A stretch of 64,000 bases of DNA from Oikopleura dioica (GCA_907165135.1 OU015566.1:4960001-5024000); one strand, 5' to 3'; counted from the stretch's first letter, positions 43,739-64,000 are shown. The notes: generated by a model not told the origin, from the sequence alone. Made by a program: numbers and translations.

Positions 43739-44052
43739 GGTAGACGGCGGGTTCCATTCTTTGTGAAGAATGATTCTTTTTTCAAAGAATAGTTCTTTTT
43801 CGCAAAGAATCATTCTTTTTTAAGAATACATGAAAGGACGCATAAAAGACAGTCAAAAGTTCAGAAGCAAAATCCTGTTTATGCAAATAACTCAGGAGCG
43901 AGTCTGCGCTTCGCGCCAGTTATCAGGGAAACTCCGAAGAGTTTCATATCTTAGAATTTCTATATATCCGAAAAACCTTTTTTCGCCTTATTTTCTCTAG
44001 AATATTGAGAAAAAGAATGATTCTTTTAAAAGAATTGAACCCGCCGTCACCC
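43739..44052. mobile_element. MITE (GGGTGACGGCGGG-type TIR, 8-bp TSD) inserted in an exon
   Basis: TSD GAAAATTG at 43731-43738 and 44053-44060; absent from copy 1. Confidence 0.88.
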
Positions 44053-44941
44053 GAAAATTGCCCAATGGGTTCTTGTGATGGCGGTTTTAAATGTCAGCGT
44101 TTTGTGACTGCACTTTGCCAGGGCGTTACATTCGATAGCGATTTCCAAATTTTAGTTATTTGGTTTCTGCTGATGGAAGTTTCAAGGTTGGCAAAAATAT
44201 AATAAATCTTTGACTATTGTTAAGGAGAAACGGCATTACGAATCTCCAATAAATCGAGAAGTTGGATATCTTTATCGGTCTGGGCATGCAATTTTAAGAG
44301 GAGAGGTGTACTTTCTTGGATCATTTGATGGGCAAGCCACAAAAAAGGTGAAAGCTCACCTCAGGTTCGATATCGATTTTGATTAAAATTCAAGATTTCG
44401 AAATCGTCTGGCTGTAAGATTGTGAATACTGGAATTCAACTTGTAAATGCTTTCATCGCTGAATACGGATCCTTGGCAACGGTTTCCTCTGCTGGAACTG
44501 ACTCCGTTATTTTATGCAGAGGTTCTTCGACCGATTGCGAAAGTTTTGACGTGGAAAAATCTCAATCTATCAGTTCTACACAAATCAGACATAGTCGTTC
44601 TTGTATGGCAGAATTTGATAATGCACCCTTGATCATTGGATCTGGTAGCCCAACTTCAAATCGTGTGGAAATTCTAACTTCAAGGTGATTCGTTATTATT
44701 TATTTTCTTACTATTCGAGAATAAGCGGTTGGCAAGATACTACTCCTCATCTTCATGGGATTTATTACCATACTTGTCTTTCTGTCTCGAATGGAGTTCT
44801 TACAATTGGTGGATACTTGAACGATCGCGATGATGAGGGTTTTACGAAAAATGTTTATCTCTTTCGAGATGATCAGTGGACAAAAGTCGGTGTTTTGCAA
44901 TCGGTAAAGAAATAATTTATTATTTTGGTTATAGTTTTTAA

Positions 44942-45694
44942 GGATATAGCCGTTCTCAAGGCACTTTCGTAGCGTCGAAATGGGGCGATAATTTTTTTTC
45001 ATTTCAAGACAGGTCCTACCTAAAATTATGTCTTGAATTCGATTCTGATGTTTTTTAACATTTTTTCAAAGAAAATTTCTCTCTGGAGCGATTTGAAATC
45101 TTACGATCACTTTTTCTCGAAATTTTTCTATTAAAACGCTAAAACTAAACCGTGTTTTAATAAAAATAACTGCTAATCTATTTTCCTAGGGCCTCAAAAT
45201 TTCAAAACCCAAGCAAATTTTCATTCTAGCGTCTTCTTCTTTTTAGCTTTTCTTTTTCATAAATGCTGCGTTCAGGGCGCTCGGCCAATCAGCGCGCTCT
45301 TTCACATGCGCGCCTCACCGCGCGATGGAGGAGGGCGCCCAGCGCAGCAAACCAGAGCGCTGTCTGACGCTTTTGCTTACTCAAGTAAGCCTCATAAAAA
45401 TGGCTCTAGAATCATAAATAATTGGAATCTATTAAACTTTAGACCCTAGGAATGTAGAGAAAGGTCCAAATTTTTAATTTATCAAAATAACTCGACCGAT
45501 TTAATGAAAAAGTCTCGAGAAAAAATGATCGTAAGATTAAAAATTGCTCTAGAGAGAAATTTTTCCATTAAAAAATTAAAAAGAACACTAGAATCTGGTC
45601 TCTTAGGCAATTTTAGGTAGGGTTCCTTTTGAAATTAAAAAATTTTATCGTCCCCTTTTGGCGCTACGAAAGTGCCTTGAGAACGGCTATATCC
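44942..45694. mobile_element. Kolobok-like MITE (TTAA TSD)
   Basis: Perfect ~31-bp TIR GGATATAGCCGTTCTCAAGGCACTTTCGTAG flanked by TTAA; absent from copy 1. Confidence 0.92.
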
Positions 45695-46097
45695 TTAAGT
45701 TTTTTACTCTTGGGTCTTCCATTCATTTCGGTGATTATTTTCTTGTTTCTGATGGTGCTGAAAACGGGTAAAAGTATAAATATAAATTCTGTTTTTAAAA
45801 AATAATTTAGAAACGTGGAAAGGGCAATGTGGGATGGTCAGAATGTAACTTCCTCGATGATTATAAACGAACATGAAGGATACTGTTTTCGGCGTATTCT
45901 CTTCGAATCTGATCCAGATTCTTGCACAGAAGGGTGCGACGATTTCTGTTACTATTAATAAAAGTCTTTTACTTTTGAAATTTCACTCAATAATTCAAAC
46001 AAAGCAAAACTGTGGCTCTTCTTTGATGAAGCTCTCAAGAGGCACTTACCATTATACAACCGAAAACTATCAAAGAGCATCTTTGAATTCTTTCAAA

Positions 46098-46740
46098 ATG
46101 AAAAATTTCGTCAAAATTTTTGTCTTCGTTTCAGTTTTAGATGCTCAGAAAGCGAGAAATTGTGAGTGCACAGCGGGAATATTGAGAAACGAAGATGGAT
46201 TGTTGAATTGCGTCTGCTCTAAAGAGATCATTTGGGTTTGAAAAACGGCGATAAATGGGATTAAAGGGGTGTTATAGAATGTAAAAGAGAAGTTCCCGGA
46301 CTGGTTTTTGCACATTGTGGACAAGACTAACAGAGATTTTCAAACGAAATGCTCCAGAAAGGTACAAAAAAGTGTTTTCTTCTTTATCAATTTTTTGAGA
46401 ATCTCGTTGATCACGCAAAAAAGACGAATATCACCGTTTTCGACTTCTTCAACAAAGACGCCACTGTCTTTCAAGGACTGCGCTCCGATTTCTGGCAAAT
46501 AACGGACATCTTCGAAAGCAAAAGCTGGAGCATCGAAAATGAAGATTTCGAGGAAGAAGGCACTCCTGAAACTCATGTTCTTCTTTTCGAAAACAGGTTT
46601 GTTCGTTTTTTTATTGAAATGATTGAGTATTTTTGATTTAGCTTTTTTGACGACAAAAATCGAGAAAACATCACGATCAATTCAGCTTTTCTGCCGACAA
46701 AGGATTCTGACAAGATTTTTCTGTCATATTTGACCTAATA
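46098..46740 (+). pseudogene. Degenerate secreted-protein gene
   Basis: MKNFVKIFVFVSVLDA signal peptide and CEC/CVC motifs, followed by in-frame stops and a frameshift. Confidence 0.45.
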
Positions 46741-46909
46741 AAGAATCCCCTTCATCATCACTTTCTTAAAAAAATGGTTGAAAAAGGGGACGTGGCTCAA
46801 GTCCCCAAGAAAATTCCATCCGGGGCGGCAAAGAGTTGACACGAGTTTTCAAGCAAAATTGACACCCGCAACTGTCGCTAGAATAAATTTTCGATCGAAA
46901 AAAAGAAGA

Positions 46910-47952
46910 ATGAAGCTTTTTTATTTTTTGCCAATTTCGGCCCTCGCCGGGCATGAGCGAGAATTCGATTGAACTTGCGGCGGAGAGATTTCCTCAGATA
47001 CAGTCATTACTTCTCCTGATTTCGATACGGAGCCCTGGCACTACAAAAATCACAACTGCACTTGGAAAGTCGACTTTGGAGAAGGCGTTGACGGCTTTGT
47101 CATTGTTCCGAAGCATTTTCAACTGGAAGATACGGGGTCGAGCTGCGCGGATTATGTTGAGATTAAAAATGATCAAATGCATCTTTCAATCTGCGGCGGA
47201 ATTTTGGACGATACGGACTACGCGGCTTTCGCGTCTTCTTCTAACTCTTCCTACTCTTCTTCTTCTTCAAGCGAATATCCTGACTACACAGGAGCCTCAT
47301 CTTCCGACTTCTGGGATCGTAGAAAACGACGAAGTGGCGATTTTGAGGGAGAAGTTCAGCATCGAGGATTCGAAGAGCCTCTCTGGGTTCCTGGTTCTCA
47401 AGCGACAATTACGTTCATCAGCGACGAGCACAGAGAATTCAGGGGCTTTGAATTTGAAATTACGGCCAATAAAATGAACGTTATTCAGAATCAAGCAGAG
47501 GTAGGAAAAAAGCCATTAAATTTTTCGAAGAAATATGTTTTTTCCCTGATCATTTATTTTCATGTTTTCAGAAAATCTTCTCCGCGCTGTCGGATGATCT
47601 CAAATGGAAAGATCGTTTCGTCAACCGGCTGACGAAAATCCTCACTTTGGCCAACAGTTCTTACACAGGAGAAAAATGCGCCGAAGAAAATGGCTTTGAA
47701 AATGAAATTCCAAGCGACCTCATTTTCGACGCGGAAGACACGTGTCCTCTAAATGACCAGGTGAACCAAGCGCTGAATTCATTTGCCAAAAGGAACGAGT
47801 TTTCAATTTTTGATCGATTTCTAATATAATGACAGAAAAGTAAAACTCGGGTGAAAAGTTGGGCTTGCCAAGGAAGCGGAAAAGTCTACAAGCAGATCAT
47901 CAATAAAGCCGCGAAAATCAAAACATTTTTCGACAGAAAATTCAACTGCTAA
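46910..47952 (+). CDS. Secreted CUB-domain protein with in-frame TGA at 46970-46972
   Basis: Signal peptide, TCGG...ITSPDF...NCTW...FQLE...CADYVEI...ICG...FISD...RGF; furin site RRKRR; last intron is GA-AG (47793-47858). Confidence 0.8.
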
Positions 47953-48799
47953 AAATTTACTCGCGAAAATAATAAACTCAATTTTTCGAACCCGTTTTCT
48001 TTTTGGCTTTTCCGCTCAGTTCTTATTCGGAATATTGGATTATGGTCGTTTTTCTGGTTTTTCTGCAGTCTTCAATCCTTTCAAGTAAAAAATCGACCCA
48101 GAAATTGACCTGAAATGGCCCCATTTCAACCTTGAAAAAGAATCAACTGGATCATCAACAAACCATGACTTGATAGTGACGCAACTGCCCCTGAGGGAAA
48201 ACTTTTTTTTGCAAAAAAAAATTCCCACTAAAAGCAATTTTCGCGACCAAAAATCAGGCCACACTGTTGTTCAGAGATTGACTGAATTTATTTCGAAAAA
48301 AGAAGAGAAGAAAAATCAAGGTAAATTTGCTAAAAATCCATTTTTTTATTTGATAATAAAAGTAGTTAATATAAGGACCGTATTCTTTTGCATTTTCAAG
48401 CTCTCTGATTGGCTGCTGGATGCTTAGGAATGTGGCTCTGGAAATTCAAATTGCAGACTGGCGCCTTTTTGCAGACAAGTACGTGATCACGTAGGTTGAT
48501 TATATAATGTTTATTACAGGTAAATAGACAGTGAGTCATACTTTACAATGAATAACAATTTTTATAGTAAACATTCAAATAAAACTTCTTGAGCTGCGAA
48601 AAGAGCGAATTCGATTCCGGCTAAAATGGGCTCGTCTTGTGAAAACCATAAATTTGTTTCAAATGTGCTACTCTTTTTAAACAATAAAAATTAATAAATT
48701 GATTAAATGAATAGCCTTATTTATCCTATTATGGAAATTGTCGATCAGCTCATAATCTATTGTTAATTAAAAATTTCCAATTAAAGCCGCAATCGATTT

Positions 48800-49064
48800 C
48801 TATAGAGCAGAGTGATTCGCAGGAGTTTTTGCAGGTTTGATGATTTCTTCATTCTCGCTTTTTCGCTTGTTTGATGGCCTTTCTGTCGGAGAGATGATTT
48901 TCAATGGCTGTGCTTCCCATTGTTTCCATAGTTCTTGTAGATTCTGGCACTTTAATAGAAAAAATTATTACGAATCATAAAATAATGAGTTGACTTACCA
49001 TTTGTTTTGACTTTCTCAGAGAAATTCTTTCTCTAAGTTTTTCTTCAAAAATCCTGTCACTCAT
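48800..49064 (-). CDS. Small orphan protein (2 exons)
   Basis: MSDRIFEEKLRERISLRKSKQM joined by a GT-AG intron to CQNLQELWKQWEAQP...HSAL*. Confidence 0.45.
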
Positions 49065-51112
49065 TTGAATTCTAATAATAGACTGACCAAGCAGGAGTCC
49101 AAGGTCTTTCTTATCAGCAAAAGGTGTGAAGTGCGCATCGTGATGCATCCGTGGGTACTTGACGGCGGGTGACGGCGGCTGGAGTGTCTGCAGGCGCTCG
49201 CAAGACTGTCTGGTGTCGCTTTTTCAGCCTAATTTATAAGTTCAGTCTGAATGGCAAATTGTCAAATATCTAAAATGTTGAAATAATCAGATGAGGCTAG
49301 AAGAAAAAACAAATGAATCAGGAAAAAAGAAATTCAGTAAAATGATCATAAGTAAGTACTATTTGGTTCAGATTGATTACGTTATCATTCTTTAGTCCTA
49401 AATCTTTGGTAAAATTTCTGAACAGTAAAGGCACTTGGCTAACAAGGTAATTTCAATCAATAAATACTGTTCAAATATTCAGTTTTTAGCGTTATATAAG
49501 CAAACGAAATGAAGCGAAATAATATCGAAGCGTATCTTCAATAAAAGCTAATCATGTTCCCATTAATCTAACAAAATGAAGCAAAATCATAACGAATCAT
49601 ATCCGTGTTGTCGAAAATTAATTTCAGTGAAGGTCTTTTTCTACTATTAAATGTTTCAAAAATCGCTGACATTATCGATGGTCATTGTATCGTTAAAACT
49701 CATAATCACATCTTCTACTGAACATTCCTTAGTGTTTTTAAATGTTGACAGAATATTATTTAAATCGATGTTGCGCGTTGCTACCTTTAAATGAAAAAAC
49801 ATAATACTTTATCATAATTCCAAGGGTAATTGAAAATTATAATATGAAACTATATATTCTCTAGTATGTGTCTTAAGGTTACGCATAAAATGTATTCAAA
49901 ATAGCAATAAAAGTTTTGATGAAATAGTTGTCTTCTATAAAATGTAATCAAAAATGTTTTCACGCTTATGCTGATGAATGTTTCTATCAATTAATTAAAA
50001 TGTTACTTTTATTTTTCTTTTGCTTTTTGATTTTCATTCTCTATTATTATAAAATGATTCAACAGTGAAAATCAAGGGATCAAAAAAGTGAATTCGAAAA
50101 TCTGTAAAATGAATACATTATTATCTCTAGAAATTATAACAGTTTTCAAAGCTATGAAATGACAGCTTGATTTTCTCAGTCTGTGTCTAATTTACGTTGT
50201 CAATCTTTGGATACAATCTTTCGCAATCAAATTATAGAATGTGACGAAACGTCGGGCCAATTGTCGACCTTTTGACGTTTCAAAATGGTTCGACTTTTAA
50301 TGTAACTATTTTTTGGGTAATGATTTGATATTTAACCATTATAGCGCTTAACCTACTGCCTCAACAATAAAATGAAAGTATCAATAATGTCTAACGAAGC
50401 AAGAAATTTTTCGCCAATGTTTCAAGGTGAGCTTAACGTCTGTTTTCTTTTCAATCAACTTTTTGTTTTAGCCAATTATTAAAAGAAAAAAAGATTTAAA
50501 TGGTAACTACCTTCGGATGATGAAAAAAACGAATGGTTTTAGTGTGTTTGTATAAAATGAATTCAATAAGATTAGCTTTTGTTAGAACGCTCCAATTGTG
50601 GTAATTTTTTTTTTGTCTTTTCTAGTGTAACTTTTCTTTTAAGCGTTAAAATGCAACAAGATGGAAAATCAAGGATAAGCATAAAAGATAGTAATAGATT
50701 ACAATTCTTTTATGAAGACTAAAATGTTTTTAGGAAAAAAAATTGAAGACAACAACGAACAAATGGCCTGCTCAATGTGAAAAAGCGCTTTCAATAAAGT
50801 CTTTTACTGTTCTTTTGAATATCTTCTTAAAATGGTGCTATGTAAATTTTACTTGTGATATAATGAAAGATACGTTTTACTCTGAAGATTAATTTCCATT
50901 TGAATAAATATGATTTTGATTTATAAAAAAGGTGTTTTTATTGTGTACGCATCTCTAGAATAGTCGCAGGAAAATGCTGTTATTTCGAATTCGGTTGTTT
51001 TCAAAGTTGAGTCGAGCAAAAGTTTCTAGAATAAGTTGATGCATTAGCTGGTATTTGCAGCTAGTGCTCATTCTTCAAAAAAGGTTTTTTTGGAAGGTTG
51101 TAGCTGGCTCCA

Positions 51113-52412
51113 ATGCTCAAGTTTTCTACATCAAAGGTAATTTTCACCGATAAAGTATATGTTAGGATTAATTTGGTATAAAAAATAATTGAAAATTTAA
51201 AATTTTTTTTTTCCAAGGCGTCCAAACCCCAACAAGTCCCATTGCTTCCCGTTAATGGAGAAGTATACGTTCGTTCTTCTGGTAAGTTTATTTGTACAAT
51301 TATTAATTTTAAACTTTTACTGAAGAAGACCATCTGGAGCTTTTGCCCATGAACGAAAGAGCGGTCGACGTTGCTCTCGAACCTCAAGAGGGAGGCGGCG
51401 AAGTGCCTTCTCTCGAATCTGTGCCTCCGGCTGGCACTGTGGAAGAATGGGCTACGATGGAGGATGAGACCGAGGGTCCGATTCGCATCCTCACTCAAGC
51501 GCCAAATGCGGGAGAGGAAGCATCCACGATTGATATCGATGCTGCCGACGTTGCTGCCGACGGCGTCGCTGCTGTGGACGATGGCTCTACTCTCCCCGTT
51601 CCCAATTTTGATGATTTCGTCGATGCTGCCGAGCGATTTCATCGATCTCGAGTTGAGGAAGTTAGCAACGTCCTCAATTCTACGAGAAACAAGCTGTTAC
51701 TCACCCCAGGTCTTGCCGAATCAACACGAGAGTGGTTGGAAAAAGTGGATGACTTGGCTATCAACCAGGCTCTCCAGAACAGCCCTGTTTCCGGTCTCAC
51801 GCAGGCGCAGGAAAACAACGCCACCCAGCGACTACCTCTCAAACGTGCTCGTCCAACCACCGCGGATGCTGCCGCCGAGCCCACCGCCGAGCCCACCGCT
51901 GCTGCTCAACTCTTCCCGAAGCGTCCACGTGCAGGCCAAATCATGTACCATGGCGTTTCGTATCCACTCGAAAGGGTTGATCGAATCCAGAACAAGGGTA
52001 GCGATAAACAAGCCACCCTTTTCGGATTTGGCAAAAATCCAAACACTTTGTCGGTCTGCCCAACTGGCAATTCTTTCTTTACAAAGGAGAAATTGGGCAA
52101 AGACAAGTACGTCAAAGGTAATTTTATTTCATATTTTAAGTATCAAAAATAAAATAAATTCTAGTGCCCGATGCACGCAAGTCTACACGAGCTAAGGCCC
52201 CTCTTCTCGAAAACTTGGCTCAAATCAAGAACCACTTCATTGAGAGAGACGCGCAGTGCACCGACTTTGTCGCTGAATTGCTCAGCGGCAATCTAGCCGT
52301 CTTAGTAGAGACGCCCTTTACGAACCTCCTTTTTGGAGATATCAGTGGATTTATTCAATCGACCTCAGGATGTCATCCAGCTACACCACCACCACCACCA
52401 AAAGACGAGTGA
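51113..52412 (+). CDS. Orphan protein A (acidic N-terminus, basic C-terminal domain), multi-exon; start approximate
   Basis: 269-codon open exon at 51343-52152 flanked by GT-AG introns; final exon ends PPPPPKDE*. Confidence 0.7.
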
Positions 52413-52997
52413 AGAATAAACTTACTCCATTCCGCCCAAGATGAAATGATGATTCTTGACGGGCGAAGAGCACACAAATTTACTCTTTCTGCGTTTCTTT
52501 CTGTGCTAGAATATAATTTAATTTTTTAAAAACCATTTAAATTTTGAATGTCTTTTCAGACATTCAAAATAAAGCGTTTGTTTTCTTTTGTTTGCTTGCG
52601 TTACTTCTAGAAATTCACTTTTTCAAATCAGCGAGGAGAAAAGACGCCGCCGAGATTTCGAGCGAGTTCATTTCCAGATTTCGCATTTTCCGTCATTGGA
52701 GTGGTCAGAATTTAAAAATCACTGCTAATTGGCTAATACCTTTTTCGTAGAGAATTTGAATGTAGAGAAAATGCTGTGTAACTATTATTCGACCACCACC
52801 ATTGACACCGGATGATTTTCTGCGCAAATTTATCACTGATTAGGTTTCGAAATACTTCTCAGCTACCGTATGTTTTTAATGATAACCCTCTTGTTGGACA
52901 ATAACATACACTTGTTATCTTACACTTGTTTCTCACAGGGGTTAATTTATAGATTCTCGCTAAGTAATATCTCCTGCGCCTCTCCATCATCCGCAAG

Positions 52998-53201
52998 ATG
53001 TCAGATGAACCGTTGCGCATAAATGTGCGTTTGAATTTGAGAGAAATGCCAGACCTCGGTCGTATTTTTCAAAGACAGCCGCATCAAATTCGGGCTTTTC
53101 GACGAGGCATTCGACATCTACGACGGCGACAGGTTCTTGTTAGACTTACTCGACGTTACCTCGACGGTTTGGTAGAGAAGCTCAATCGTTTCATCATGTA
53201 A
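52998..53201 (+). CDS. Small Arg-rich orphan protein
   Basis: ATG-initiated 67-aa ORF, MSDEPLRINVRLNLRE... Confidence 0.45.
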   Translation: MSDEPLRINVRLNLREMPDLGRIFQRQPHQIRAFRRGIRHLRRRQVLVRLTRRYLDGLVEKLNRFIM

Positions 53202-53435
53202 GTACCTGGCGAGATTAGTTCCATTTTATTTCCTATAAATCAAGGGAACAACAGCTCAATGAGGGACGATTTCGCATCGACAATTTCGAGTTGGAAGGCG
53301 CGAATAGCCAACAACAGCGTACTCTCTCACTCAGCACTCGAAATTGGCGATTCTATTCTGCAAAGGTTTAAAATTTGTTTCATAATGTTAATTTTTAAAA
53401 AAAAATTTCAGAAGAGCTTCAAAGCCATTCTCAAG

Positions 53436-54800
53436 ATGATTGTTGTTCTTTTGCTTGGAGTTTTGATCGGCGGTTTGATGCTTGGCGGTGTAGCAGTCTA
53501 CTTGTGCCGACAAGGTCAAGAAATCGGTGAGAACTTGGCTTGCAAGCTTGACTTCAACGCGGCTATTTTTGGAACTTCTTCTCAAGCCGACGATATTGCC
53601 TTTGTCGATGAGCGTTCTTTTACAAATATTACGGCTTTGGATGAAGAGGAGCTACGTCGTTTCCGCCGTGATGTCGATTACGGTAATCTTTTGTTTTTTA
53701 TAAAAAAAGTAAAAAAAATTTTAGCTCTTGTTCCAGCGGACGATTCAAGCGATCTCTCGATGGACGAGTTCTACGATCTTATCGTGGACACATATGTCGA
53801 AGAAGATTCAAGCGACGAGATGGGTAATAATGAAATCATGAATAAAGATTTTTAATGAATTTTAAAGTCATTACCACCACTGCTCCCATTGTGGAGATTT
53901 TGTCTGATGACTTTGACGTTGAAGGCAGTGGCGATGAGGGATCATCCGACATTCAGCAGCCTCCTGTGACTTCTTTGGCGACCGCGACCACGACCGTGAC
54001 CACGACCGCGACAACGACCGTCACCACTACTACGTCCAAGACCACGACCACACCTTTCTTGGCTACTACGGCTAAGACTACAGCAATGTCTACTCGTGAC
54101 ACCTTTGCCGTCGATTTTGAAGTCGTTGCTGATGATACCGTCGCCACCGCCGCCGCCGCCGCCGCCGCCGCCACCGGTGTCGAAGGATCAGGTAAAATGT
54201 TAATTCGGAAAAAATGTAAACGCTTGTCATCAAGGTTCCGGCGACAGCGGCGAAATTGACATCGATTTGGTCGACGATTTTGCTTCAAACTCGGCAGCAA
54301 AGAATCACGGTATTATCACATATATAAGTGTCTCGCTTGCCACTGTAATTGGCTACTATTTTGCGCTCGCTTTGCTCAAAGCAGGTAAAAAACGCTGTGA
54401 TTTATCATTTGCTAATTTTTGGGCGCATTCTGTAGCGCAGCTTGCTTGGGATAAACATCGTCGATGCTTCTTCATTCCAGCAGCCTCCTCATTTGATTCC
54501 TCATTCGATGATATGTGCTCTTCTTCTGGGGATGAAATTGTCTCTCTTCATCACCGCCGTCGCCGGGGCTATTTTCAGTCTCCAATTTTAGAAGACGACG
54601 AGGAGGAGGAGCAGGAAGATCTCATTTACGACTACGAGCCAATGGTGGCTCGCAACGTCAAGAATGCAAGTAAGTTTTTTACGTCAAAAAAACGCCCTTT
54701 TTCATACTTTTTTAAGATCCTACTGAGCGCTACAAATACTACAGCAATCTCGTCTAAGTCTCCACCGATTCGGCGTCATCATTTTATCGACAAAAGTTGA
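53436..54800 (+). CDS. Orphan membrane glycoprotein, Thr-rich with acidic Ser-Gly sites (proteoglycan-like); 3' end approximate
   Basis: N-terminal hydrophobic segment, DVEGSGD / VEGSGSGD motifs, TTATTT tract, TM IITYISVSLATVIGYYFALALL; short GT-AG introns. Confidence 0.7.
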
Positions 54801-54991
54801 TACAATTTATTGAAAAAAAATCTTTTCTCTCAACCTTACTAACCCAAATTACTGCTAATTTTAATTGCTCTATCCCTTTTCCTCAAGTGTTTACTAACAA
54901 CCTTCTTTGTGGTTCTAAACTGTTCCGCTCAATGACCTTCTCGTCTTATCAACAATCGATTATTTTTTTTAACTTAAGACAAGTGGTTGAT

Positions 54992-55759
54992 ATGTCTTCC
55001 GATCGTCCTCCATCTGCCGCGCCGTACGGTACTGCTCCTTCGCATGCTGATGCCGAGTCCGTCATCACCACTTCACGAGAGAATGGATTTGAAGTCGCAC
55101 TCGAGCGCCAGGAAGAGCGCCAGTACAACTCTCAGCAGTCAAATCGTCAGCAGAAAACTACAACCAAGAAAAAGAAAAACAAGTAATTACTTTTTTTTCA
55201 GCACAGATTCTTACAGTTAAATTTAAGACTGGTTCTTGGTTTCAAGATTGCCAAGAACATTTGCAAAGTGGCCAAGCGATCGAGACGAAGTAACGCATGT
55301 AAGAGATTTTCAATGCAGTAGCATTTTCTTATTTCTCTATTCAGATCATTCTACCACCAGCACGACGACTGTCGCTAAAAAGTCGAAATTTCGACTGATT
55401 TACGAAAGTGCCAAGAAGGCAGTGAAGAGTAAGTCATTTTTCGTGATGTTTTTGCTAATTGTTATTTTGTAGCAGTGCGGCATTCCAATCCTCGTCTTGT
55501 GAGCACTTTAGCTCTTGGAGATCTTGAAGCTACAGTTTCTTTGGCTTCACGTGGCAACTCTCGAGCCGCCATTGTAGAAGCTACTCGACCTACGTTCCCA
55601 CTTCCCGCAATGGCTCAAGAACAAGCGCGACTCGCTTTACCTGCCACCGTGGATGCTGCCGAGCCGACTGCTCCCGATTTTCAACGGTTCGAGCGTGTGC
55701 CTGCTCACATTGCCTTTCAGCGCGTGATTGAGCAACTTCAAGAGCGAAATTCGCGTTAA
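54992..55759 (+). CDS. Orphan protein, partial paralog of protein A
   Basis: FEVALERQE vs VDVALEPQE; ATVDAAEPTA vs TTADAAAEPTA; 4 short exons. Confidence 0.6.
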
Positions 55760-56033
55760 AAAATTCTCACTGCCACCAACCACCATTTTTAGGTCCATCT
55801 TTAGGTTTTTTACTAATTGAAAATTTAACTGTCATCCTGTCTGCCACTCACTCACATTCGCTCATGTTTGATCAATCCCTTTTACTCGCCCACCACCACC
55901 ACCGCCGCGCGAAAAGAGTTTTATTTATCCAGGATCTAAACTTCTTTTTGTGCATCAGCTCATTCACTGTCATCATTATCGTTTTGGACCACTAAATACT
56001 TATCAAAACTTTTTTAATTTTTTCTACTTTTAG

Positions 56034-56408
56034 GCTGATTGAGGAGCTCGATATTGTGATTGCCATAGAGGAGAATATTGTGCGGAGATCAAACGGCCTT
56101 CCAATGATGGTAATATAAAAAAAACTCGGGCTTTTTGGGTTAATTTTCATCTAGATCACGAGCGGTCCAATGTGCATGGCTCAAGTTCGAAAGACAATGT
56201 ACAACACAGGTAAAAACTTTTGTAAAAATAATGTTTCAACGTTTTTTATTCAGATCATTTGAGCAAGTACACCAAAAAGCGGCAAAGAGACGAAGACGAT
56301 TATCCCGATTTAACAGAGCTTTGGGATGAGAAAAAGTGTCGTTTTGCTGACCCGAGTTTAATCTATACTTCTGCTGTTGCTGCTCGACGTCAATTTTGCT
56401 GTTTTTGA
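56034..56408 (+). CDS. Small orphan multi-exon gene; start unresolved
   Basis: Three short exons with GT-AG introns, ending DHLSKYTKKRQRDEDDYPDL...FCCF*. Confidence 0.4.
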
Positions 56409-56440
56409 TTGCTGTTTCAATTCCTTTTTTTCAGAAAAAA

Positions 56441-59400
56441 ATGCACAATCGAAAAACTGAAATTTTCGAAAATCTCACCAGGTCGCCAGATCCTACATGC
56501 AACACGCCAAGTGCCAAAATTTTGATTCATTCGCCAGCCTCGGTAGGTGATCAATCTGACCAATCTTTTAATTCTATTTATAGGTTTATGAAAATAGCTC
56601 AAGTCAAGACCAATTTGACGAATCAACTCCGTTGAAACGACGCTCACTGCTGCCTCATTCTGCTGGGCCGAGTAAGCATCTTTCCCCTCGGGCTGCTGCG
56701 GCGGCGGCGGCGGCTATTCAACAAACAAGCGGTGGCGTCTTTTCTCTTAGCACGCCCTCACCTCTCAACAGCGTTGGTTCGACTAATTCTTCGCCGCATT
56801 TTCTTTCTCCTGGCTCAATTAATCCAAATCGTCCTACTTTTCCACGTAAGTTAAATTTTTAATAAAAATTGGTTAAAAGAAAATTAGTGTACACACTTGA
56901 AAATGGTGGCCGAAGTCGCTACGATTGGAAAAGCCCTTACAATCCAGAGTACGCAAGAGGGCTGGCATTTGTCAGGGGAACAAGCATGGTGATGGCGCGA
57001 AGAGGTACTCGCCCGCCAACAGGAGGACCCGTCACTCGACGATCAGTCACAAAAAAACAAAAATCTTCCAATGATGAGCCGAAGACGCCACCTCGAAAAA
57101 TTCCTGGTCCGCTTGAGCTAGGTTTTGGAAAAGATTTTTCCGTTTATGAATTTAAAAACACTCCTCTCGAAGATCGTTTTCCGCCTCCTGCACCTTCGGC
57201 GGCTCAAATGGCTGCGGCTCTGGAAGCTTCAAAGACGACTTCGACAGATAATCTCTACCGTCCTTATCGTCCTTTGACTCCTCATCCTACAGCCACGGTG
57301 ACGACTAGAAGTACAAGTAGAGCAACTCGTCGTCTCGATTTTGGCCCGAGTCAAGAGCCGATAAATCTTTCGCTTCCAAAGTCGGCTGATCAATCGCGCA
57401 AACGTAAGCGAGATAGCGATTGTGAAACGCCTCGTGGCGGCGATGAGGATGGTGACACTGCTGAAGACGACAAAATCGTGGAAAATGATTCGCCGCTTGA
57501 TTTGACAACCGCTGCTGCTGGTGGTGATTCAAAAGTTTCGAGCGGTTCTGAATCTGAAACTTGGAGCCCTTCTTATCCAGTCAAGATTCCGGTCACGGAC
57601 CGAAGAAACAAATCAAGACGGCTTGTGACTCAAAAGGAGAAAACACCTATCGTCCAGCAGTGCCGTACGGCGGCCGTACGACACCAGCAGCAGCAGCAGC
57701 AGCAGCAAGATGTCGAGGATCATTCGCCAAAAAAGGAAACATTTATTCCTTGTATGCTCAACGTTCACCGAAATGAAAAGGGTCAATTCGCTAGTAATGA
57801 TTCAACTCCCAAAAAAGCTTCACTTCGCAATTTGGCAAAGAAGAGAGCGCGCGCTCGATTGGATCCGAAGCGAGTTACAGAGTTTGACACTCTTCCAGCC
57901 TGTCCAAAAGTTCCACTTTTGACAAATAAAACGTCTGATGTCGAGCCGTACGGCACCGCCGAGCCGTATGGCACCGGTTCAAAAATGGCTTCAGCAAACA
58001 AGTCGATCGAAATCGATGTGTCTGGGTTGGATTCAATTGCTGAAGATGAGCTTACTTCTGGGGAGCGGCTCAAATTCATGAAAATCTACGCGCATGCTGT
58101 TACTGGACGCCGCGGAATTGTTCCAATGTTGGGCGACACAAATATGGGACATTATTTGCGTCGGCTTTCTTCAGAATTTGCACAGAATTGGCAAGTCTAT
58201 GGAAATCCTCAAAAGAAAGATGCGACAACGATTTTGGCGCAAATGAACTGGGATTGTTTCCGAGCCGATCGCATTGGTCCTCCACAGTACTATTCTCTTG
58301 ACGGTAGCAAGTTTAAAATGCCTGTCAATACGCCAAATTTTAAAAATCTTGGACCAAGACGGGCCACTTTCATGTTCAATGGGGAGTCAATCTTTTGGGC
58401 AATTATGTTTGCCAAGATTTGCGAGTTTGGGTAAGTTGGTAAAATAAAAAGAAAAATTAACATTTTCGATCAAGGTTAAATCAAACAACGGAAAAGAATG
58501 GGAAGCTCGCTCCCTTGGATTCGATTTCAAGGATGAAGAACTGCGCTTGATCATCGAGGATGTCAACAAATTACCAAAAACCGTTTGGCCTTGGCCCTTG
58601 GATCGTAAGCACGATTTTGAGCCTTTTCCAGCTGAACGAGCGGCAATTTTGTTGCTTATGGGCTTTTGCCCTTGTTCCCAGGATCCTCATTATGCTTCGA
58701 CCGTTGTCGCATTTCAAGAGGTAAGACGACGTTACTACTATAACGATTTGGTCATAGTAGTTATTTGTCTTATAGAATTTGTTCAACAGCGGCGTTGCAA
58801 AACGATTAAACGAGCCTCCATCTGCTGTTCAAATGGAATTCGTCTACGATCGCCTCGAAGTTTATCTCCATCGACTCGCCATAGCTTCAGTGGAGCGCGA
58901 TATCTTTGGACAAGTGGACGGATCTTCTGTTGCCCAGATAATTGAAAAACGATTTCAATTTATGGGAGCTGCTCTCGGCGATTACTTTCATACGACGCCT
59001 ACAATTGAAGATGTGATTCCTCAGCCAACGCAAGCAGGTGAAACTGACATTGACGAATGTGCTCTAACAATCGACACATCGTTGACAGAATGCAATCCGC
59101 CAATGTCACCGGCTCTGGAAAATGTGCTCGATTCGTTGCCCACAATCTTCAGATCTGGCCGAAGTTACATGCGCCCCACAAAAGAGCTGCTGATGCGGCT
59201 TACATTTGCACAATCTTTTCAACCGTTTACAGAAAATCCACATATGATGGAATTGGTATGTTTCAAATTTTAAGTTGAGATTCTGATTCTGATTTTAAAG
59301 TTTGGCGCTCGAGAAACTCCCAACAGCTGGTTCCGAAATTGCAAAGAATCAGAGCACACTTACCCAAGGCGAAAAACAAAAACTTTCTGCTGTTATCGAA

Positions 59401-59473
59401 AAGCTCAAAGCAAAATCTAACAAGGTAAATTTACTCAAGTGCGTTTTAATAAATTTACCAATTTTTCTAGTAA
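56441..59473 (+). CDS. Large orphan nuclear protein (~900 aa): disordered N-half with PINLS/PLDLT motifs and NLS, globular C-half; 3' end approximate
   Basis: 521-codon open exon plus flanking exons; RKRKR; probable 1-nt indel in the T-run at ~58393. Confidence 0.75.
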
Positions 59474-59603
59474 TTCCTTCTGCCGCTACCACATCGCTTT
59501 TCGCGCATATTTTTACCCTACGACATTTACTTGCACTTTCATTCTATTTTACTGAAAAATTGAAGTTTTTGAACAAAATTTTTAAAAGATCAATTCAACT
59601 AGA

Positions 59604-60009
59604 ATGTCACATCATCCGCCATTGACGGCACCGCTGGCTTGTTCAACGCCTTCACCCGAGTCAGTGGCAAATTCTGAAATGCGAGAATTGATGCCAAAGG
59701 TAACTGTTGCTCCCTCGCCTATTCCACGAACGGCATCTAATGGCGAATTGTTTCGAAGTCTGTCTCCAATCGTCTACAATGCATACAACTTTTGTGTCTC
59801 TTGTCAACGCGCGTTCACCGATCGGAATAGGCGATTTGTTGCCCATCCCTGCTCGCATGCTGTCTGTCAGAAAAGAGTCCAAAACTTATAAAACTATTTA
59901 GATGAGTTAGTTTTATTATTGGACTCTTTAAAAGTGCTCCTTAAAAACGATTGACATTTGTCTAGTCTGTAAAAGCGAAATTCTTATGCTTTTCAATACC
60001 GAGTTGTAA
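59604..60009 (+). CDS. Small RING-finger (C3HC4-like) protein
   Basis: CVSC...PCSHAVCQKR spliced to CSLKTIDICLVC; stop at 60007-60009. Confidence 0.75.
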
Positions 60010-60075
60010 ATTTTTTTTCTACAAATGAATTCATTCTTTTGAATTTTTTTAACCGGAATCCTGTATTTCAGAATC

Positions 60076-62750
60076 ATGAAATTGGTCTTTCTACTTGGCA
60101 TCATATCAATGGGAATATGTCAAGTCACTAACGACTGGGGATGGATCATGCCGTCGACCGAGCCTAAGTCGACCACGTCGACCGAGTCTACCACGTCGAC
60201 TACGACCACGACCACGTCGACTACGACCACGTCGACCACGTCGACCACGACCACGTCGACCACGACCACGACCACGTCGACCACGTCGACCACGACCACG
60301 TCGATCACGTCGACCACGACCACGTCGACCACGACCACGTCGATCACGACCACGTCGACCACGACCACGTCTACGACGACCACGCCCGAGTCCACGATAT
60401 TGCCTGAAAGATCCCAGCCAAGTACCATTTCCAGCATTGATTTATCAGCCACTACCGACGACGACGACGACGACGACGAAAAGTTGAACGGAACGACGAG
60501 TCCGACAAGTGTGGTTTCAAGGTACGTTTAGAAACTCGTGGTACCAAAAAAAATGCATGGTATAAAAATTTATCCCTCTTGAAAAATTGCGCTAGGAAAA
60601 GGGAAAACCGTCGCCGTCTTCAAGGTTGAGCAGAGTGATTTTTCACATGGCACAATTTTTTATACCATGCATTTTTTTTGGTACCATGAATCCCCAGACC
60701 TACCGCAAGATCCAATTTATTTTTTTTCAGCATCGCTGGCATAAATGAAACTCTGCTCCAACCACCACCTGCTCCGCCAACACCGAAATTCTCGAAAAAA
60801 CAAATTGTTTTGCTGTCAGTCGTTTATCCGATACTGTCCATATTTTCAATTTGTTTCTTTGGAATTGTGGTGATAACGTATTCAACTCACGATTGGAACT
60901 TGTGGGATTCGACAAAATACGCTGCTCGGACATGGCCGATTTTTATTCGAAATTTGTTTATGGATTGCTTATCGTTGATCCCATTCAGAGAGTTTGATCC
61001 AAAGAAACGGTATACAAACTACATACGAATCAACGCAACCATGACAAATTTTGACGGTAAATTTTTATCGGTTTTTTTTATTTTCAACCCATTTTTAGAT
61101 CGAAATCCGGGAAAACGAGTCCGTGGATGTTTTGCATCAATTTGGAAGCGCTGTTGTTGTTGTTTTTATCCACGTCAACAGTACTCGGATGCCATTCACG
61201 AAGAGATTGATCTTCAAAACGAGCGTCATCCAAGAAATTTACGTGGCGCACGATATCAATCTGGTGGTGACGATCATCATGAAACTTCTCGCCTTTTGAA
61301 CAATCAGCAACGCAATTTACCACCAAGACCTTCTCGACCGGTTAAACCTGGCCCACCGCGACCCGATTACCCAAGACCCGATTACGTAAGTCTATCGAAA
61401 GCACCGACACCTGTTGGCGGCGCCGCCCTGGCGGCGCTCAAGATTTTCGAGCAGCGGTGGAGCCGAACGGCGCAACAGCGGCGAGAACCGCGCGATACGC
61501 GCGCTTCTCGAGGGGGGCGCGGGGAGGGGCTTCGCCCCTAGAAAAAGTCGCGAAACCGCCTAGACGGCGGTCTCGGCTCCTTTTTCGTTGGCGTACGCTT
61601 GCGCGTACGCGATCGCGTACGCTTGCGCGTACGCGATCGCGTACGCGTGCGCGTACGCGTGCGCGTACGCGCTCGCGTGTGTGTTTTTGAACGCTTCGCT
61701 AAATTTTATTTCTAGTGCCAAGACGCCCCTTCTGGTAACATCGTGGTGAGCGACGAACGAGAGCTGGAGATTTTGGCTCAAGAGGAAAAGCTCAAAATGG
61801 CAACACAGCGAGTTATCGACAAGGAGCAGCGAAAGTTTGATCTTGAGCACAAAAGATACAAGGCTCGAGTCGAACACAAGCGGCGCAAGCGCGAAAAGGC
61901 AGAAAAACGAGCCAAAGCCAAGTACGAGAAGCGCAAAACCAAACTGGACATGATTCGAAACGCTGCTGCTGCTGCTGCTGCCGTACGGCCGCCGTACGGC
62001 ACCACCGGCACTCCTACAACTTCTGGTGGTGATGAATCGCTGACACCGTCATTTCAGACACCTCCCACCGCTCAAAATCGCTCTGTTCCGGCTCGAGTTT
62101 TTCCACAGCGACTCGAAAGGGAATCGTTTCGATTGTCAACAAAATTATCGCCAAGGGAAAAAGACGCCAAAGGTGAAAGCAAGCATTCGACGGAATCTAT
62201 TTCCCTTTTCGAGGAGCCAGCGATCATCGCCAACTTTGACTCGATCGACGACGACGACGATTCGCTCGCCAGTGACTGCTGCCGCTGCTGCTGCTGATCA
62301 ATCTTCTTCCTTTGACGAATCTGACATTATTCGTCAAATTGACAATGCCAAAACTCCTTCTCCACCACTATCTATGCGACGTCGCTCGCCATCCTGCTCT
62401 GCTCTTAATACGCCAGTCGTTGTCGCTCATGCTGCCACTGCAGCTGCTGATTCGAGTCAAAATTGGTCATACTCGATGCCGGATCTTAGGTAAGACTATT
62501 TCTAATCAAACAATTTTACCCAAAAATTTAGCCAAGCCTACAACACTTTTGTTCGACCGACGGCTTTTGGCAAGCTTCTCGACGTCGCATTTCCAGCCAC
62601 CACTGCCGCCACTGATGATGATGAGCAGCCACAATATGCATCAACTCCAGCAAAAAGAATACAGGCACTTGGGGCGCAGAGAATTTTTTTATATGTTTTG
62701 ATTAATCCTCGGATTGGCATTTTTAACTTGGTTATTGATGCGAGTTGAAA
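60076..62750 (+). CDS. Type I mucin-like membrane glycoprotein with long cytoplasmic tail; 3' end approximate
   Basis: Signal peptide MKLVFLLGIISMGIC, ~70-aa Thr/Ser stalk, TM, CCCC cluster, PPRPDYPRPDY, Lys/Arg/Glu coiled coil. Confidence 0.78.
60168..60385 (+). repeat. Coding minisatellite (ACCACG/TCGACCACG units) encoding a poly-Thr/Ser stalk
   Basis: Directly visible tandem repeats. Confidence 0.9.
60537..60688. mobile_element. Small hairpin MITE in an intron
   Basis: TGGTACCAAAAAAAATGCATGGTATAAAAATT / AATTTTTTATACCATGCATTTTTTTTGGTACCA. Confidence 0.75.
61590..61678. repeat. Intronic tandem array of seven 12-bp units with palindromic GCGTACGC core
   Basis: GCGTACGCTTGC GCGTACGCGATC GCGTACGCTTGC GCGTACGCGATC GCGTACGCGTGC GCGTACGCGTGC GCGTACGCGCTC. 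Confidence 0.9.
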
Positions 62751-63248
62751 ACACCAACCCGAGACATAGTCGACATATTATAATCGACAAACTCTGTTGC
62801 CCCTAAAAGCCATCGCTCGAATCGATACACCAACAATTGGCGCCGCGGGAGCTGGTGCCAGATCCAGATCGCAAACAGGAAACGGGAGGAGCAATCGTCA
62901 TTTGTTAGAAAATGACAAAATTTGTATGCATAGTGTCCGACTTTCCAATTTTTTTTGGTTTGTATTATTGGAACTAGTTGGAGCATGCATATAAATTTGT
63001 TCAACATTCGACGACTAAGCAAAATGATAATTGCTCCTCCCGATTAAAAAGTTGTTGCCACTATTCACGAGCTTCCGGAAGAAGAAGAAGATTATGAGGA
63101 CCAGCGACGCCGTACGGCCAGCCGTGGTGGTACCGTACGGTCTACCGTACGGCCTGGCCGGCGACAACGACGACAAACAGGCATGGGCGGTAAAATTACT
63201 ACCAACGTTACCATTTGTCGTACACAGGAACTTGTCCTTCTCTTGTAA

Positions 63249-63536
63249 ATGAAGCGCAGTCTCTGTGAACGATTAAAGAATAACGTTATAATCGACTTAC
63301 AGTACCGCCCATTCTCAGACAATCTCAACTCTGTCGGCACAACAATTTCTCGCTCTTCTGAGCCTCCACCACTGACAGAGTTTGATGGCGGCGCACTCTT
63401 GAGCGACGAAGAAATTCAAGAAGACGACAGTGTTTTCATTGAAGACGACGAAGATGCTTCTTTCCAGTTTGGACCTTCGTCGCCAAATCGCCCGAAGCGC
63501 GAGCGTAAAAACCAGATAGATTCACTCATTGAGTGA
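63249..63536 (+). CDS. Acidic orphan ORF or terminal exon
   Basis: 95-codon ORF with an acidic tract, same strand as the rest of the island. Confidence 0.45.
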   Translation: MKRSLCERLKNNVIIDLQYRPFSDNLNSVGTTISRSSEPPPLTEFDGGALLSDEEIQEDDSVFIEDDEDASFQFGPSSPNRPKRERKNQIDSLIE

Positions 63537-64000
63537 GCTCCGCAAAAGTTCACTTCCCGCTCCACAAAAGTTCACTTGATTCGGCTTTTTAAAATGTTAC
63601 TTGTAACATAATTTTCTCACTTGTACGACTGCTTATTTCCCCTGTTTTTTCATTTTTAAATGTTACAAAGTGCATTTGACCTAAAACAACTTAGAATACA
63701 TTAGCTCCAATTTAATCAGTTTTTCTTTTATTTAGACTCGAAGTGTTCTTGACAAAGGTGGTGATAATTCAAGGAAAAGGTCTTGTCGACGACTATTGCT
63801 ATATTTTTATTATAGTGCAGTAGAAAATAGTTGGACAACATCTTTTTGTGTTCGTGCTTCATGCAAACTCGATCACAAACAAAAAAGCCAACAAAAAGGA
63901 AAAGGCTGAAGAGGAATCAATCAAGGATGAGCCATCCGACACGTGGACACCAAGATCGCAGCGAGGCCGTTCGGCGCGGAGGAGGAGGAGGATTTCGTCA

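What the first reader, a model, noticed from the sequence alone, without database searches (positions are those of the whole stretch)
48400..64000. Island of co-oriented orphan genes with a virus-like repertoire: candidate endogenous large DNA virus or giant mobile element
Seen: after the CUB gene and an AT-rich, decayed-looking stretch (~49.3-51 kb), about ten tightly packed + strand genes follow. None has a recognisable host domain except a small RING finger. The set includes two Thr-rich membrane glycoproteins, a CtBP-motif nuclear protein and a paralog pair. The DNA signature also changes: CCGTACGG palindromes, (GCC)/(GCT)/(GAC)/(CAC) triplet runs, and only one small MITE versus many upstream. 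Known: small RING ligases, mucin-like envelope glycoproteins and PxDLS regulators are typical accessory genes of large DNA viruses (herpes-like viruses, adenovirus E1A). Inference: this is the left part of an integrated element whose genes carry host-style 40-55 nt introns. No polymerase, capsid, terminase or integrase gene is visible in this window.
Basis: partly seen in the sequence, partly recalled or inferred. Interest (0 to 1): 0.85.

Follow-up and report, generated by a model that had tools for sequence, protein, structure and literature searches.

The report
Young foreign gene island in Oikopleura
In the plankton tunicate Oikopleura dioica, a block of at least 15 kb with about eleven predicted genes that have almost no known relatives starts at a sharp breakpoint and carries its own repeated DNA motif; it is likely a recent insertion present on only some chromosomes, possibly the left end of a large DNA virus or giant mobile element, although no viral core gene was found in the part seen.

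Summary
The island is real. It holds ten predicted + strand genes and one minus-strand gene with 41-58 nt introns. CCGTACGG occurs 8 times inside it, in all three reading frames, and never upstream (0.19 expected). The claimed paralog pair was not found. The shortage of Pfam domains and of MITEs is not significant by count.

New evidence comes from public DNA runs of three studies. All show the same discordant joint at 48555/48644. Beyond it the island assembles into long unbranched contigs (two runs), with 0-0.23% substitutions and single- or two-copy-like depth, while the flank splits into many divergent contigs. The flank gene matches a named O. dioica chr1 gene.

Only one island gene was searched deeply. 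Among 1.84 billion representatives its only real relative lies on a marine metagenome contig with tiny introns (42-59% identity, purifying selection). No polymerase, capsid, terminase, integrase or transposase was found, and the right end lies outside the window.

Best reading: a young presence/absence insertion of a large mobile element or endogenous DNA virus (0.55; viral about 0.35). Main rival: a host orphan operon on a rearranged or hyper-divergent haplotype (0.3).

The parts
46910..47952 (+). Host CUB-domain gene: last host marker before the edge, not part of the island
   Evidence: Pfam CUB E=8e-8; exons 99-100% identical to named O. dioica chr1 gene model P0006
48556..48644 (.). 89-bp segment at the left edge; in another allele the flank (to 48555) is joined to its opposite strand
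   Evidence: Joint 48555 to 48644, opposite strands, one contig each in X1, X3, X4, depths 88, 66, 89.5
48645..64000 (.). The island (left edge here; right end outside the window)
   Evidence: Long unbranched contigs, flat low depth, 0-0.23% substitutions; motif and codon shift
48800..49223 (-). Gene L, about 120 codons, one intron (exact borders not settled), orphan
   Evidence: no Pfam match
49224..51200 (.). AT-rich (28% GC) stretch with intron-like GT-AG pairs but stops in all frames; likely a decayed gene
51349..52412 (+). Gene A, 338 aa, acidic disordered N-terminus and a small C-terminal domain; may have 5' exons from about 51218
   Evidence: Models; no significant family; fold not resolved
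52998..54757 (+). Gene B, 479 aa, predicted two-pass membrane proteoglycan-like protein: furin-type RFRR, Thr-rich stalk, acidic Ser-Gly sites, tail ending in a YxxL motif
   Evidence: Eight-exon model open from ATG to stop; hydropathy and motifs
54992..55759 (+). Gene C, 210 aa, basic low-complexity orphan
   Evidence: Four-exon model
56104..56409 (+). Gene D0, short orphan; start uncertain, may be 5' exons of D
56441..59419 (+). Gene D, about 917 aa: long disordered N-terminus with PINLS and PLDLT (CtBP-type) motifs and NLS-like runs, and a conserved C-terminal domain of about 270 aa; one intron border and the last exon's frame are uncertain
   Evidence: homolog P0001/L001
59604..60009 (+). 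Gene E, 115 aa RING-finger protein split by a 58-nt intron
60076..61541 (+). Gene F, about 404 aa predicted type I mucin-like membrane protein (signal-peptide-like start, Thr run, one membrane segment, Cys cluster, Pro-rich tail); 3' end uncertain
60536..60689 (.). Single host-type foldback element (MITE) inside intron 1 of F
   Evidence: raised depth in that bin in X3 and X4
61591..61671 (.). Array of 6.8 palindromic 12-bp units with a CGTACG core, able to form a long hairpin
   Evidence: TRF; fold -65.6 kcal/mol, z -7.2, inflated because the units are palindromes
61797..62748 (+). Gene G: basic coiled-coil-like N-terminus, Ser/Pro-rich rest; frame break inside a triplet run near 62.27-62.30 kb in the window (left as it is)
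   Evidence: contigs of X3 and X4 over this part carry about 30 gap letters
63066..63536 (+). Gene H, acidic orphan; 5' structure not settled
63824..64000 (+). Gene I, cut by the window end
55022..63152 (.). Eight CCGTACGG palindromes in five clusters (55022; 57663; 57946; 61981, 61992; 63110, 63133, 63145), within genes and in all three frames

Best explanation
The block from 48645 onward is likely the left end of a large foreign element, probably an endogenous nucleus-replicating DNA virus or a giant cargo-carrying transposon, that likely inserted recently at one autosomal site of Oikopleura dioica and is likely carried by only some chromosomes. Shown: the edge joint in three studies, the low diversity, the element-specific palindrome, and coding conservation of gene D. 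Inferred steps: (1) Insertion at a double-strand break left an 89-bp local inversion, as microhomology-mediated repair can; O. dioica lacks canonical NHEJ (PMC11067885, passage). (2) The genes would be processed by the host spliceosome (45-nt introns) and perhaps by spliced-leader trans-splicing (acceptor-like AG within 15 nt of the ATG in 4 of 10 genes, not tested against chance). (3) They would act as host-manipulation cargo. D would be a nuclear regulator recruiting the co-repressor CtBP through PxDLS-type motifs, and E an E3 ubiquitin ligase. B and F would be heavily glycosylated surface or envelope proteins, B with a tyrosine signalling tail. (4) The CGTACG palindromes and the array at 61591-61671 would be binding sites for an element-encoded DNA-binding protein (origin or packaging signal). 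(5) The replication, capsid and integration genes would lie beyond 64000. Split of the 0.55: about 0.35 virus-derived, about 0.2 non-viral giant element.
For: Joint 48555/48644 in 3 of 3 holder runs from three studies. Island in X1: one 11,651-nt contig, 0 substitutions, depth 45, against flank contigs of depth 74-88. X3: six contigs, 34 substitutions in about 14.8 kb (0.23%), depth 53-60 against summed flank about 98-112 at several sites. X4: 13 substitutions in about 9.0 kb of the eight listed contigs. Published heterozygosity of an O. dioica individual is about 3.6% (PMC8008620). All 40 shown of 789 variant sites (the best supported) lie left of 48300. Depth is flat and low, so the island is not a high-copy repeat. 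Motif 8 against 0.19 expected, in all frames. Synonymous codon use differs from flank genes (chi2 111, df 41; 8 of 9 island pieces and 13 of 17 host pieces classified correctly). Gene D has no relative among annotated Oikopleura proteins in an exhaustive phmmer search, while the flank gene found its chr1 counterpart in the word-indexed search. Its one relative (L001) keeps three colinear coding blocks; codon-position identity is 0.55/0.67/0.32 and 7 of 36 fourfold sites agree: an old gene under selection, in a young location. Intron-bearing large DNA viruses and endogenous ones are in print (PMC12768974, PMC10871703; passages).
Against: No hallmark gene in 15.4 kb. No relative in IMG/VR for three parts of D or the domain of A. 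The only homolog lies on a contig that looks like larvacean DNA (40% GC, tiny introns, a co-oriented neighbour) and has 0 CCGTACGG in 2.4 kb (about 1.2 expected at island density), so it could be an ordinary host ortholog. Genes B to I meet the published operon definition of same strand and at most 500 bp apart (PMC11067885). Domain scarcity and MITE scarcity by count are not significant, and the dinucleotide shift (81-127) overlaps the upstream range (30-102). The tool warns that contig depth is no copy number. X1's island depth is only about 0.6 of the window-matching flank contigs, which one diploid carrier does not explain. The empty allele was not seen directly, and 230 loose ends were hidden. 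Flank contigs matching the window in X3 also have 0 substitutions in 503 and 533 nt, so low divergence partly reflects a shared haplotype. No target-site duplication or terminal repeat was seen at the left edge. Only 1 of 11 genes had an exhaustive homolog search.
Confidence: 0.55

Rival explanations
1. Host genes. The block is a fast-evolving lineage-specific operon of O. dioica that sits on a rearranged (inversion breakpoint) or hyper-divergent haplotype. The membrane glycoproteins and RING protein would serve recognition, gamete or immune functions.
For: Host-type intron size (median 45 nt; published median 48-51) and an operon-like layout. A larvacean-looking homolog. The joint is an inversion-type joint in a genome known for scrambling (PMC11067885). 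No viral hit anywhere. Domain scarcity not significant.
Against: No annotated Oikopleura relative of D at a sensitivity that found a 41% identical one. A DNA-level palindrome across four genes and three frames. Single-allele depth with no second allele at 85% likeness over 15 kb in X1 and X3. A plain inversion would keep diploid depth.
Confidence: 0.3
2. A sex-specific (X or Y) segment, or another haploid scaffold, joined to an autosomal flank by translocation or assembly error. Half depth would then reflect male haploidy.
For: Depth like one copy in X1 and X3 and like two in X4 would fit two males and one female. Sex-specific regions have about half depth in a male (PMC8008620 Table S1).
Against: The flank gene matches a chr1 gene at 99-100%. 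The Y region is 55% repeats whereas the island is repeat-poor. Diversity is more than tenfold below published heterozygosity, more than X-linkage alone predicts (inference). In X1 and X3 the island contig starts inside the 89-bp edge segment at the same base where the joint contig ends. No listed contig spans 48555-48556 in the window's orientation, so a misjoin is not excluded.
Confidence: 0.1
3. Nothing special: an ordinary run of unannotated host genes with low-complexity proteins, in a region that happened to be homozygous or swept.
For: Several first-reader contrasts fail significance; the compositional shift is modest.
Against: Motif enrichment; the abrupt change of depth and allele structure at one joint in three studies.
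Confidence: 0.05

Closest known systems
Teratorn (piggyBac-alloherpesvirus fusion, medaka; PMC5601938, passages)
   Same: Large, gene-dense, young element in a chordate genome with many unannotated genes and intact reading frames
   Different: Teratorn has 18-bp terminal inverted repeats, target-site duplications, a transposase, herpes core genes and 30-40 copies. Here there is low-copy depth, an inversion-type edge and no core gene in the 15.4 kb seen
Endogenous nimaviruses of crustaceans (Majanivirus and kin; PMC10871703, passages)
   Same: Endogenous large DNA viruses of a marine invertebrate with eukaryote-like genes, some with introns, and little expression
   Different: They insert into telomere repeats, microsatellites or 28S rDNA through their own recombinase or integrase and carry WSSV homologs. 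No such repeat or gene is at this edge, and here nearly every gene has introns
Intron-rich mirusviruses (PMC12768974, passages)
   Same: Large nuclear DNA viruses with many GT-AG spliceosomal introns and few Pfam-annotated genes (13-14%)
   Different: Hosts are unicellular; introns peak near 80 nt and are enriched in virion genes; no sequence link was found here
O. dioica operons (PMC11067885, passages)
   Same: Head-to-tail genes at most 500 bp apart with about 45-nt introns
   Different: Host operons are not described with a private palindrome, half depth and a shared breakpoint
Syndecan-type proteoglycans, CtBP-binding viral regulators (adenovirus E1A, EBV EBNA3) and viral RING ligases (ICP0-type); recalled, no call
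   Same: Acidic Ser-Gly sites with a Thr-rich stalk (B), PxDLS-type motifs (D), a small RING (E)
   Different: Resemblance of motifs only; no sequence or fold homology was shown

Membership tests
Teratorn-like endogenous herpesvirus | Herpesvirus core genes (DNA polymerase B, helicase-primase, terminase, major capsid) | tested here: inconclusive
   None in the island ORFs and exons scanned; the rest of the element is outside the window and no genome is held
Teratorn-like endogenous herpesvirus | piggyBac transposase, terminal inverted repeats, target-site duplication | tested here: inconclusive
   No transposase match; no short duplication across the left edge; terminal repeats cannot be tested without the right end
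Teratorn-like endogenous herpesvirus | Tens of near-identical copies per genome | tested here: not met
   Flat depth of 35-60 (X1, X3) and 82-106 (X4), against thousands for a flank MITE
Endogenous nimavirus | Insertion into telomere repeat, microsatellite or 28S rDNA | tested here: not met
   No tandem repeat at 48.4-48.8 kb; no Rfam match in 44000-64000
Endogenous nimavirus | WSSV homologs and a tyrosine recombinase or Ginger2 integrase | tested here: inconclusive
   No match in Pfam or IMG/VR for the parts searched; downstream part unseen
Polinton/Maverick | Protein-primed polymerase, retroviral-type integrase, ATPase and capsid genes within about 15-25 kb (size recalled) | tested here: not met
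   15.4 kb from the edge hold none of these by Pfam
Giant endogenous viral element (Nucleocytoviricota or Mirusviricota) | Several phylum hallmark genes in one block | not testable with these tools
   Only the left 15.4 kb are held; none seen there
Recent insertion polymorphism | Sharp junction, with an alternative allele at the same site | tested here: met
   Joint 48555/48644 in 3 of 3 holder runs
Recent insertion polymorphism | Empty allele joining left and right flanks | tested here: inconclusive
   Inferred from depth only; the continuation of the joint contig was not shown
O. dioica host operon | Same strand, intergenic distance at most 500 bp | tested here: met
   Genes B to I by my models; the A-B gap is 585 bp
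O. dioica host operon | Polycistronic transcript with spliced leader | not testable with these tools
   The RNA runs laid did not cover even the host flank gene
O. dioica host operon | Orthologs in other O. dioica annotations | tested here: not met
   For gene D only: none among 1.84 billion representatives; control flank gene found in the word-indexed search. Other genes not searched exhaustively

The most novel reading that the evidence does not exclude
This is the left end of the first endogenous large DNA virus of a larvacean tunicate, from a lineage with no detected relative in IMG/VR. Its genes are written wholly in the host's grammar (45-nt introns, operon-like units resolved by spliced-leader trans-splicing) and are marked by a private CGTACG palindrome code. 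It is young enough to segregate at about half frequency in animals from three studies, and relatives such as L001 circulate in plankton.
Probability: 0.3. Interest if true: 0.85.

Novelty: new variant of a known kind. Interest (0 to 1): 0.62.

Why it matters
Ten literature searches (listings only) showed no report of an endogenous large DNA virus or giant element in Oikopleura, an abundant grazer and chordate model. Published screens for endogenous dsDNA viruses can ignore introns (bioRxiv 10.1101/2025.04.19.649669, passage), so an element whose genes are nearly all cut by 45-nt introns would be missed by design. If viral, it opens a virus lineage close to the vertebrate root and shows a virus using operon-style, possibly trans-spliced expression. 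If non-viral, it is a giant cargo element or a large presence/absence haplotype that may feed the genome scrambling of this species. Either way the mapped edge makes the question testable with existing assemblies and one PCR.

Tried and rejected
Whole genome: not held, so there was no downstream flank and no copy search.

RNA: no RNA holder was listed. Four RNA runs laid only 17, 10, 7 and 0 reads, all partial, and did not cover the host CUB gene; this is no test of expression. Run X13 holds neither island nor most of the flank at 85% (14 contigs laid) and is uninformative.

Protein searches: the word-indexed search with D exon 3 scored none of 550 candidates and covered only 287-914 aa. The profile search returned only P0001 among 6933 candidates. 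P0002 (E 5.8e-4) is a dockerin-repeat bacterial protein, rejected as chance. L002 (30 aa, 43%, Nitrospira contig, E relative to candidates only) was judged chance and not followed. Exact look-up of 10 unspliced island ORFs found 0 of 10, which says nothing on spliced annotations.

Libraries: PDB by sequence gave nothing below E 1.4 in 3 searches. PHROGs gave 3 of 20 pieces at E 0.02-0.09, treated as noise. Phage tblastn: no match. ESM Atlas: no usable hit for two D exons. Pfam PPP1R21_helical on D (E 1.3e-4, below cut-off) was treated as a helical look-alike.

Folds: single-sequence AlphaFold gave pLDDT 34.5 (D piece) and 42.9 (A piece), so no fold search was run. My recalled hunch of a chromodomain-like or PCNA-binding motif in A got no support.

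Other: the paralog pair was not found. The idea that the joint allele is an intact host gene is not decided: it gives a 45-nt intron and an open frame, but the window allele also gives a 48-nt intron and an open frame. Supplement searches for neighbours of the named chr1 gene found nothing. Seven look-ups of earlier findings gave no report on this locus.


Full report
Host and setting. No whole genome is held. The last ordinary gene before the island is a CUB-domain gene (Pfam E=8e-8). A search with it returned 4 proteins among 176 candidates, one of them a named Oikopleura dioica chr1 gene model, P0006, whose exons match the window at 99-100%. The host is therefore O. dioica and the flank is autosomal in that named assembly. 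The report does not state which assembly the window comes from. Upstream, 144 stop-free frames of 78 aa or more gave Pfam matches at 7 loci: sodium channel, LCCL, dehydrogenase, kinesin, EF-hand, sulfatase and CUB.

The observation. Splicing by coordinates gives ten + strand genes (A, B, C, D0, D, E, F, G, H, I) and one minus-strand gene L at 49223-48800. These are predictions; no RNA confirms them. A, B, C, E and F are open from ATG to stop with GT-AG introns only. D needs one off-canonical border, L's borders and H's 5' part are unsettled, G has a frame break in a triplet run near 62.27-62.30 kb, and I is cut by the window end. The 21 short introns are 41-58 nt, median 45, like the published host median of 48-51 (PMC8008620). 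B is a 479-aa two-pass membrane protein with a furin-type site, a Thr-rich stalk, acidic Ser-Gly sites and a YxxL tail. F is mucin-like with one membrane segment. D carries PINLS and PLDLT motifs and basic runs (motif labels recalled). E is a RING finger split by an intron. No paralog pair was found.

Is it more than chance? CCGTACGG occurs 8 times, all in the island; 100 shuffles gave a mean of 0.19 and at most 1. Counted as five clusters against an order-3 Markov expectation of 0.09, P is 5e-8 before correction for picking the motif. The copies fall in all three reading frames of four genes, so this is a DNA feature, not a peptide motif. A 12-bp palindromic array with the same core lies at 61591-61671. 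Synonymous codon use differs from flank genes (chi2 111, df 41), though low-complexity runs contribute. Foldback cover is 1.3% against 14.5%, but by count P is 0.09-0.22, and one Pfam locus in 15.4 kb against seven in 48.5 kb gives P=0.39. The dinucleotide distance of island chunks (81-127) overlaps that of upstream chunks (30-102).

Read evidence. Six runs from five samples and three studies hold 77-95% of the words of 54000-63900. I laid three of the six (X1, X3, X4; one per study) and one non-holder (X13) on 44001-64000 at 85% likeness. Left of about 48.5 kb the sequence breaks into many short contigs with alternative letters; all 40 shown of 789 variant sites lie there, and one alternative contig differs at 22 of 245 letters. 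Right of it, X1 has one contig over 48607-60252 with no substitution and depth 45, against 74-88 for its listed flank contigs. X3 has six contigs with 34 substitutions in about 14.8 kb (0.23%, my sum) and depth 53-60, about half of the summed flank depth at several sites (98-112; other sites sum higher). X4 has sparse variation (13 substitutions in about 9.0 kb of eight listed contigs) and depth 82-106, near twice its single flank contigs. Published heterozygosity of one animal is about 3.6%.

The edge. All three holders show the same joint: the flank up to 48555 continues on the opposite strand from 48644. In X1 and X3 the short side of that contig (38 and 54 letters) ends exactly where the island contig begins (48607, 48591). 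So two forms of this site exist. In one the 89-bp segment is followed by the island; in the other it is joined to the flank in reverse. What follows in the second form was not shown. Reading it as an intact host gene is possible but not decided. Caveats: contig depth is no copy number, X1's ratio of about 0.6 does not fit a single diploid carrier well, the best holder may be the window's own source, and window-matching flank contigs in X3 are also identical to the window, so the low divergence partly marks one shared young haplotype.

Relatives. An exhaustive phmmer search with 151 aa of D against 1.84 billion representatives gave 2 hits: P0001 (E 1.9e-9) and an unrelated dockerin-repeat protein. 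P0001 comes from a 2.4-kb metagenome contig, L001 (1 of 201 pattern matches). It matches D in three colinear coding blocks at 42, 48 and 59% identity, has tiny AT-rich introns, one at the same position, and lacks the palindrome. Identity by codon position is 0.55, 0.67, 0.32, and only 7 of 36 fourfold sites agree. D is therefore a real gene under long purifying selection. No annotated Oikopleura protein was hit, though the collection holds that proteome (a different search tool, so the control is imperfect). Nothing was found in IMG/VR, PDB, the Atlas or phages. The other ten genes had family scans only; A also had one IMG/VR and one PDB search.

How it most likely works. An old, selected gene set in a young, probably hemizygous location, with its own DNA signal and a structural edge, is what an inserted element looks like. 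I infer insertion at a break repaired with a small inversion; O. dioica lacks canonical NHEJ and uses microhomology repair (PMC11067885). The cargo would be processed by host splicing and perhaps trans-splicing. Acceptor-like AG sites lie within 15 nt of the ATG in C, D, E and F (not tested against chance). D would repress host genes through CtBP, E would ubiquitinate host targets, B and F would coat a cell surface or envelope, and the palindromes would be bound by an element protein. All functional steps are inference from motifs. Confidence in a foreign element is 0.55 (virus about 0.35). A host orphan operon on a rearranged or hyper-divergent haplotype gets 0.3, a sex-linked or misjoined segment 0.1, and an ordinary region 0.05.

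Comparison with what is known. It works like Teratorn, endogenous nimaviruses or other giant endogenous viral elements, but it is not filed under any of them. Copy number fails for Teratorn, the target site fails for nimaviruses, the gene content of the first 15 kb fails for Polintons, and core genes cannot be tested. Intron-rich large DNA viruses are in print (PMC12768974), as are endogenous ones with intron-bearing host-like genes (PMC10871703).

What I saw of the papers. PMC8008620: passages and part 1 of 3 of its supplement. PMC11067885: passages and a term search of four supplements; its data archive was too large to read and may hold the alignments that settle presence or absence. PMC5601938, PMC10871703, PMC12768974 and bioRxiv 10.1101/2025.04.19.649669: passages only; the preprint's supplements are closed and might list tunicate regions, although its main text has no mention of Oikopleura or tunicates. 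Ten searches were seen as listings, and none described such an element in larvaceans. Subscription papers are not covered.

Verdict. Observation partly confirmed; interpretation partly supported, with new evidence for a young insertion and none yet for a virus. Novelty: new variant of a known kind. Interest 0.62; 0.85 if the downstream flank shows viral core genes (probability about 0.3 for the boldest reading).

Noticed in passing
window 46970-46972: The host CUB gene has an in-frame stop near codon 21 in the window where relative P0004 has a sense codon; the named model P0006 splices around this part.
   Followed up: no
window 44938-45698: A high-copy foldback element (depth in the thousands) in an intron; several contigs skip 765-900 nt here, so it is itself an insertion polymorphism.
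   Followed up: partly
window 40700-46000: Tandem duplicate genes 81-90% alike with Cys-rich starts and propeller-like repeats, no Pfam match; a third relative seems to lie near 19726.
   Followed up: no
L001 1-389: A second, co-oriented, intron-bearing gene ends about 70 nt before the D homolog; it has no tblastx match in the window and no Pfam match.
   Followed up: partly
PMC8008620 Table S1: Small unplaced scaffolds chrUn_2 and chrUn_7 (about 57 kb, 20 genes each, 3-12% repeats, about half depth) have the profile of haploid gene-dense blocks and might be further islands of this kind.
   Followed up: no
window 48400-48540: Promoter-like cluster just left of the edge: a reverse CCAAT box, a 14-bp palindrome, a TATA-like run and TGAGTCA (labels recalled).
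   Followed up: no
window 52767: All three DNA runs carry one extra base here, so the window has at least some small indel errors; modelled frames near homopolymers may be affected.
   Followed up: no
window 56715 and 61982: Loose contig ends in X1 (255 and 192 letters) start at the GCG run and at a CCGTACGG site; they may be chance matches or related sequence elsewhere in the genome.
   Followed up: no
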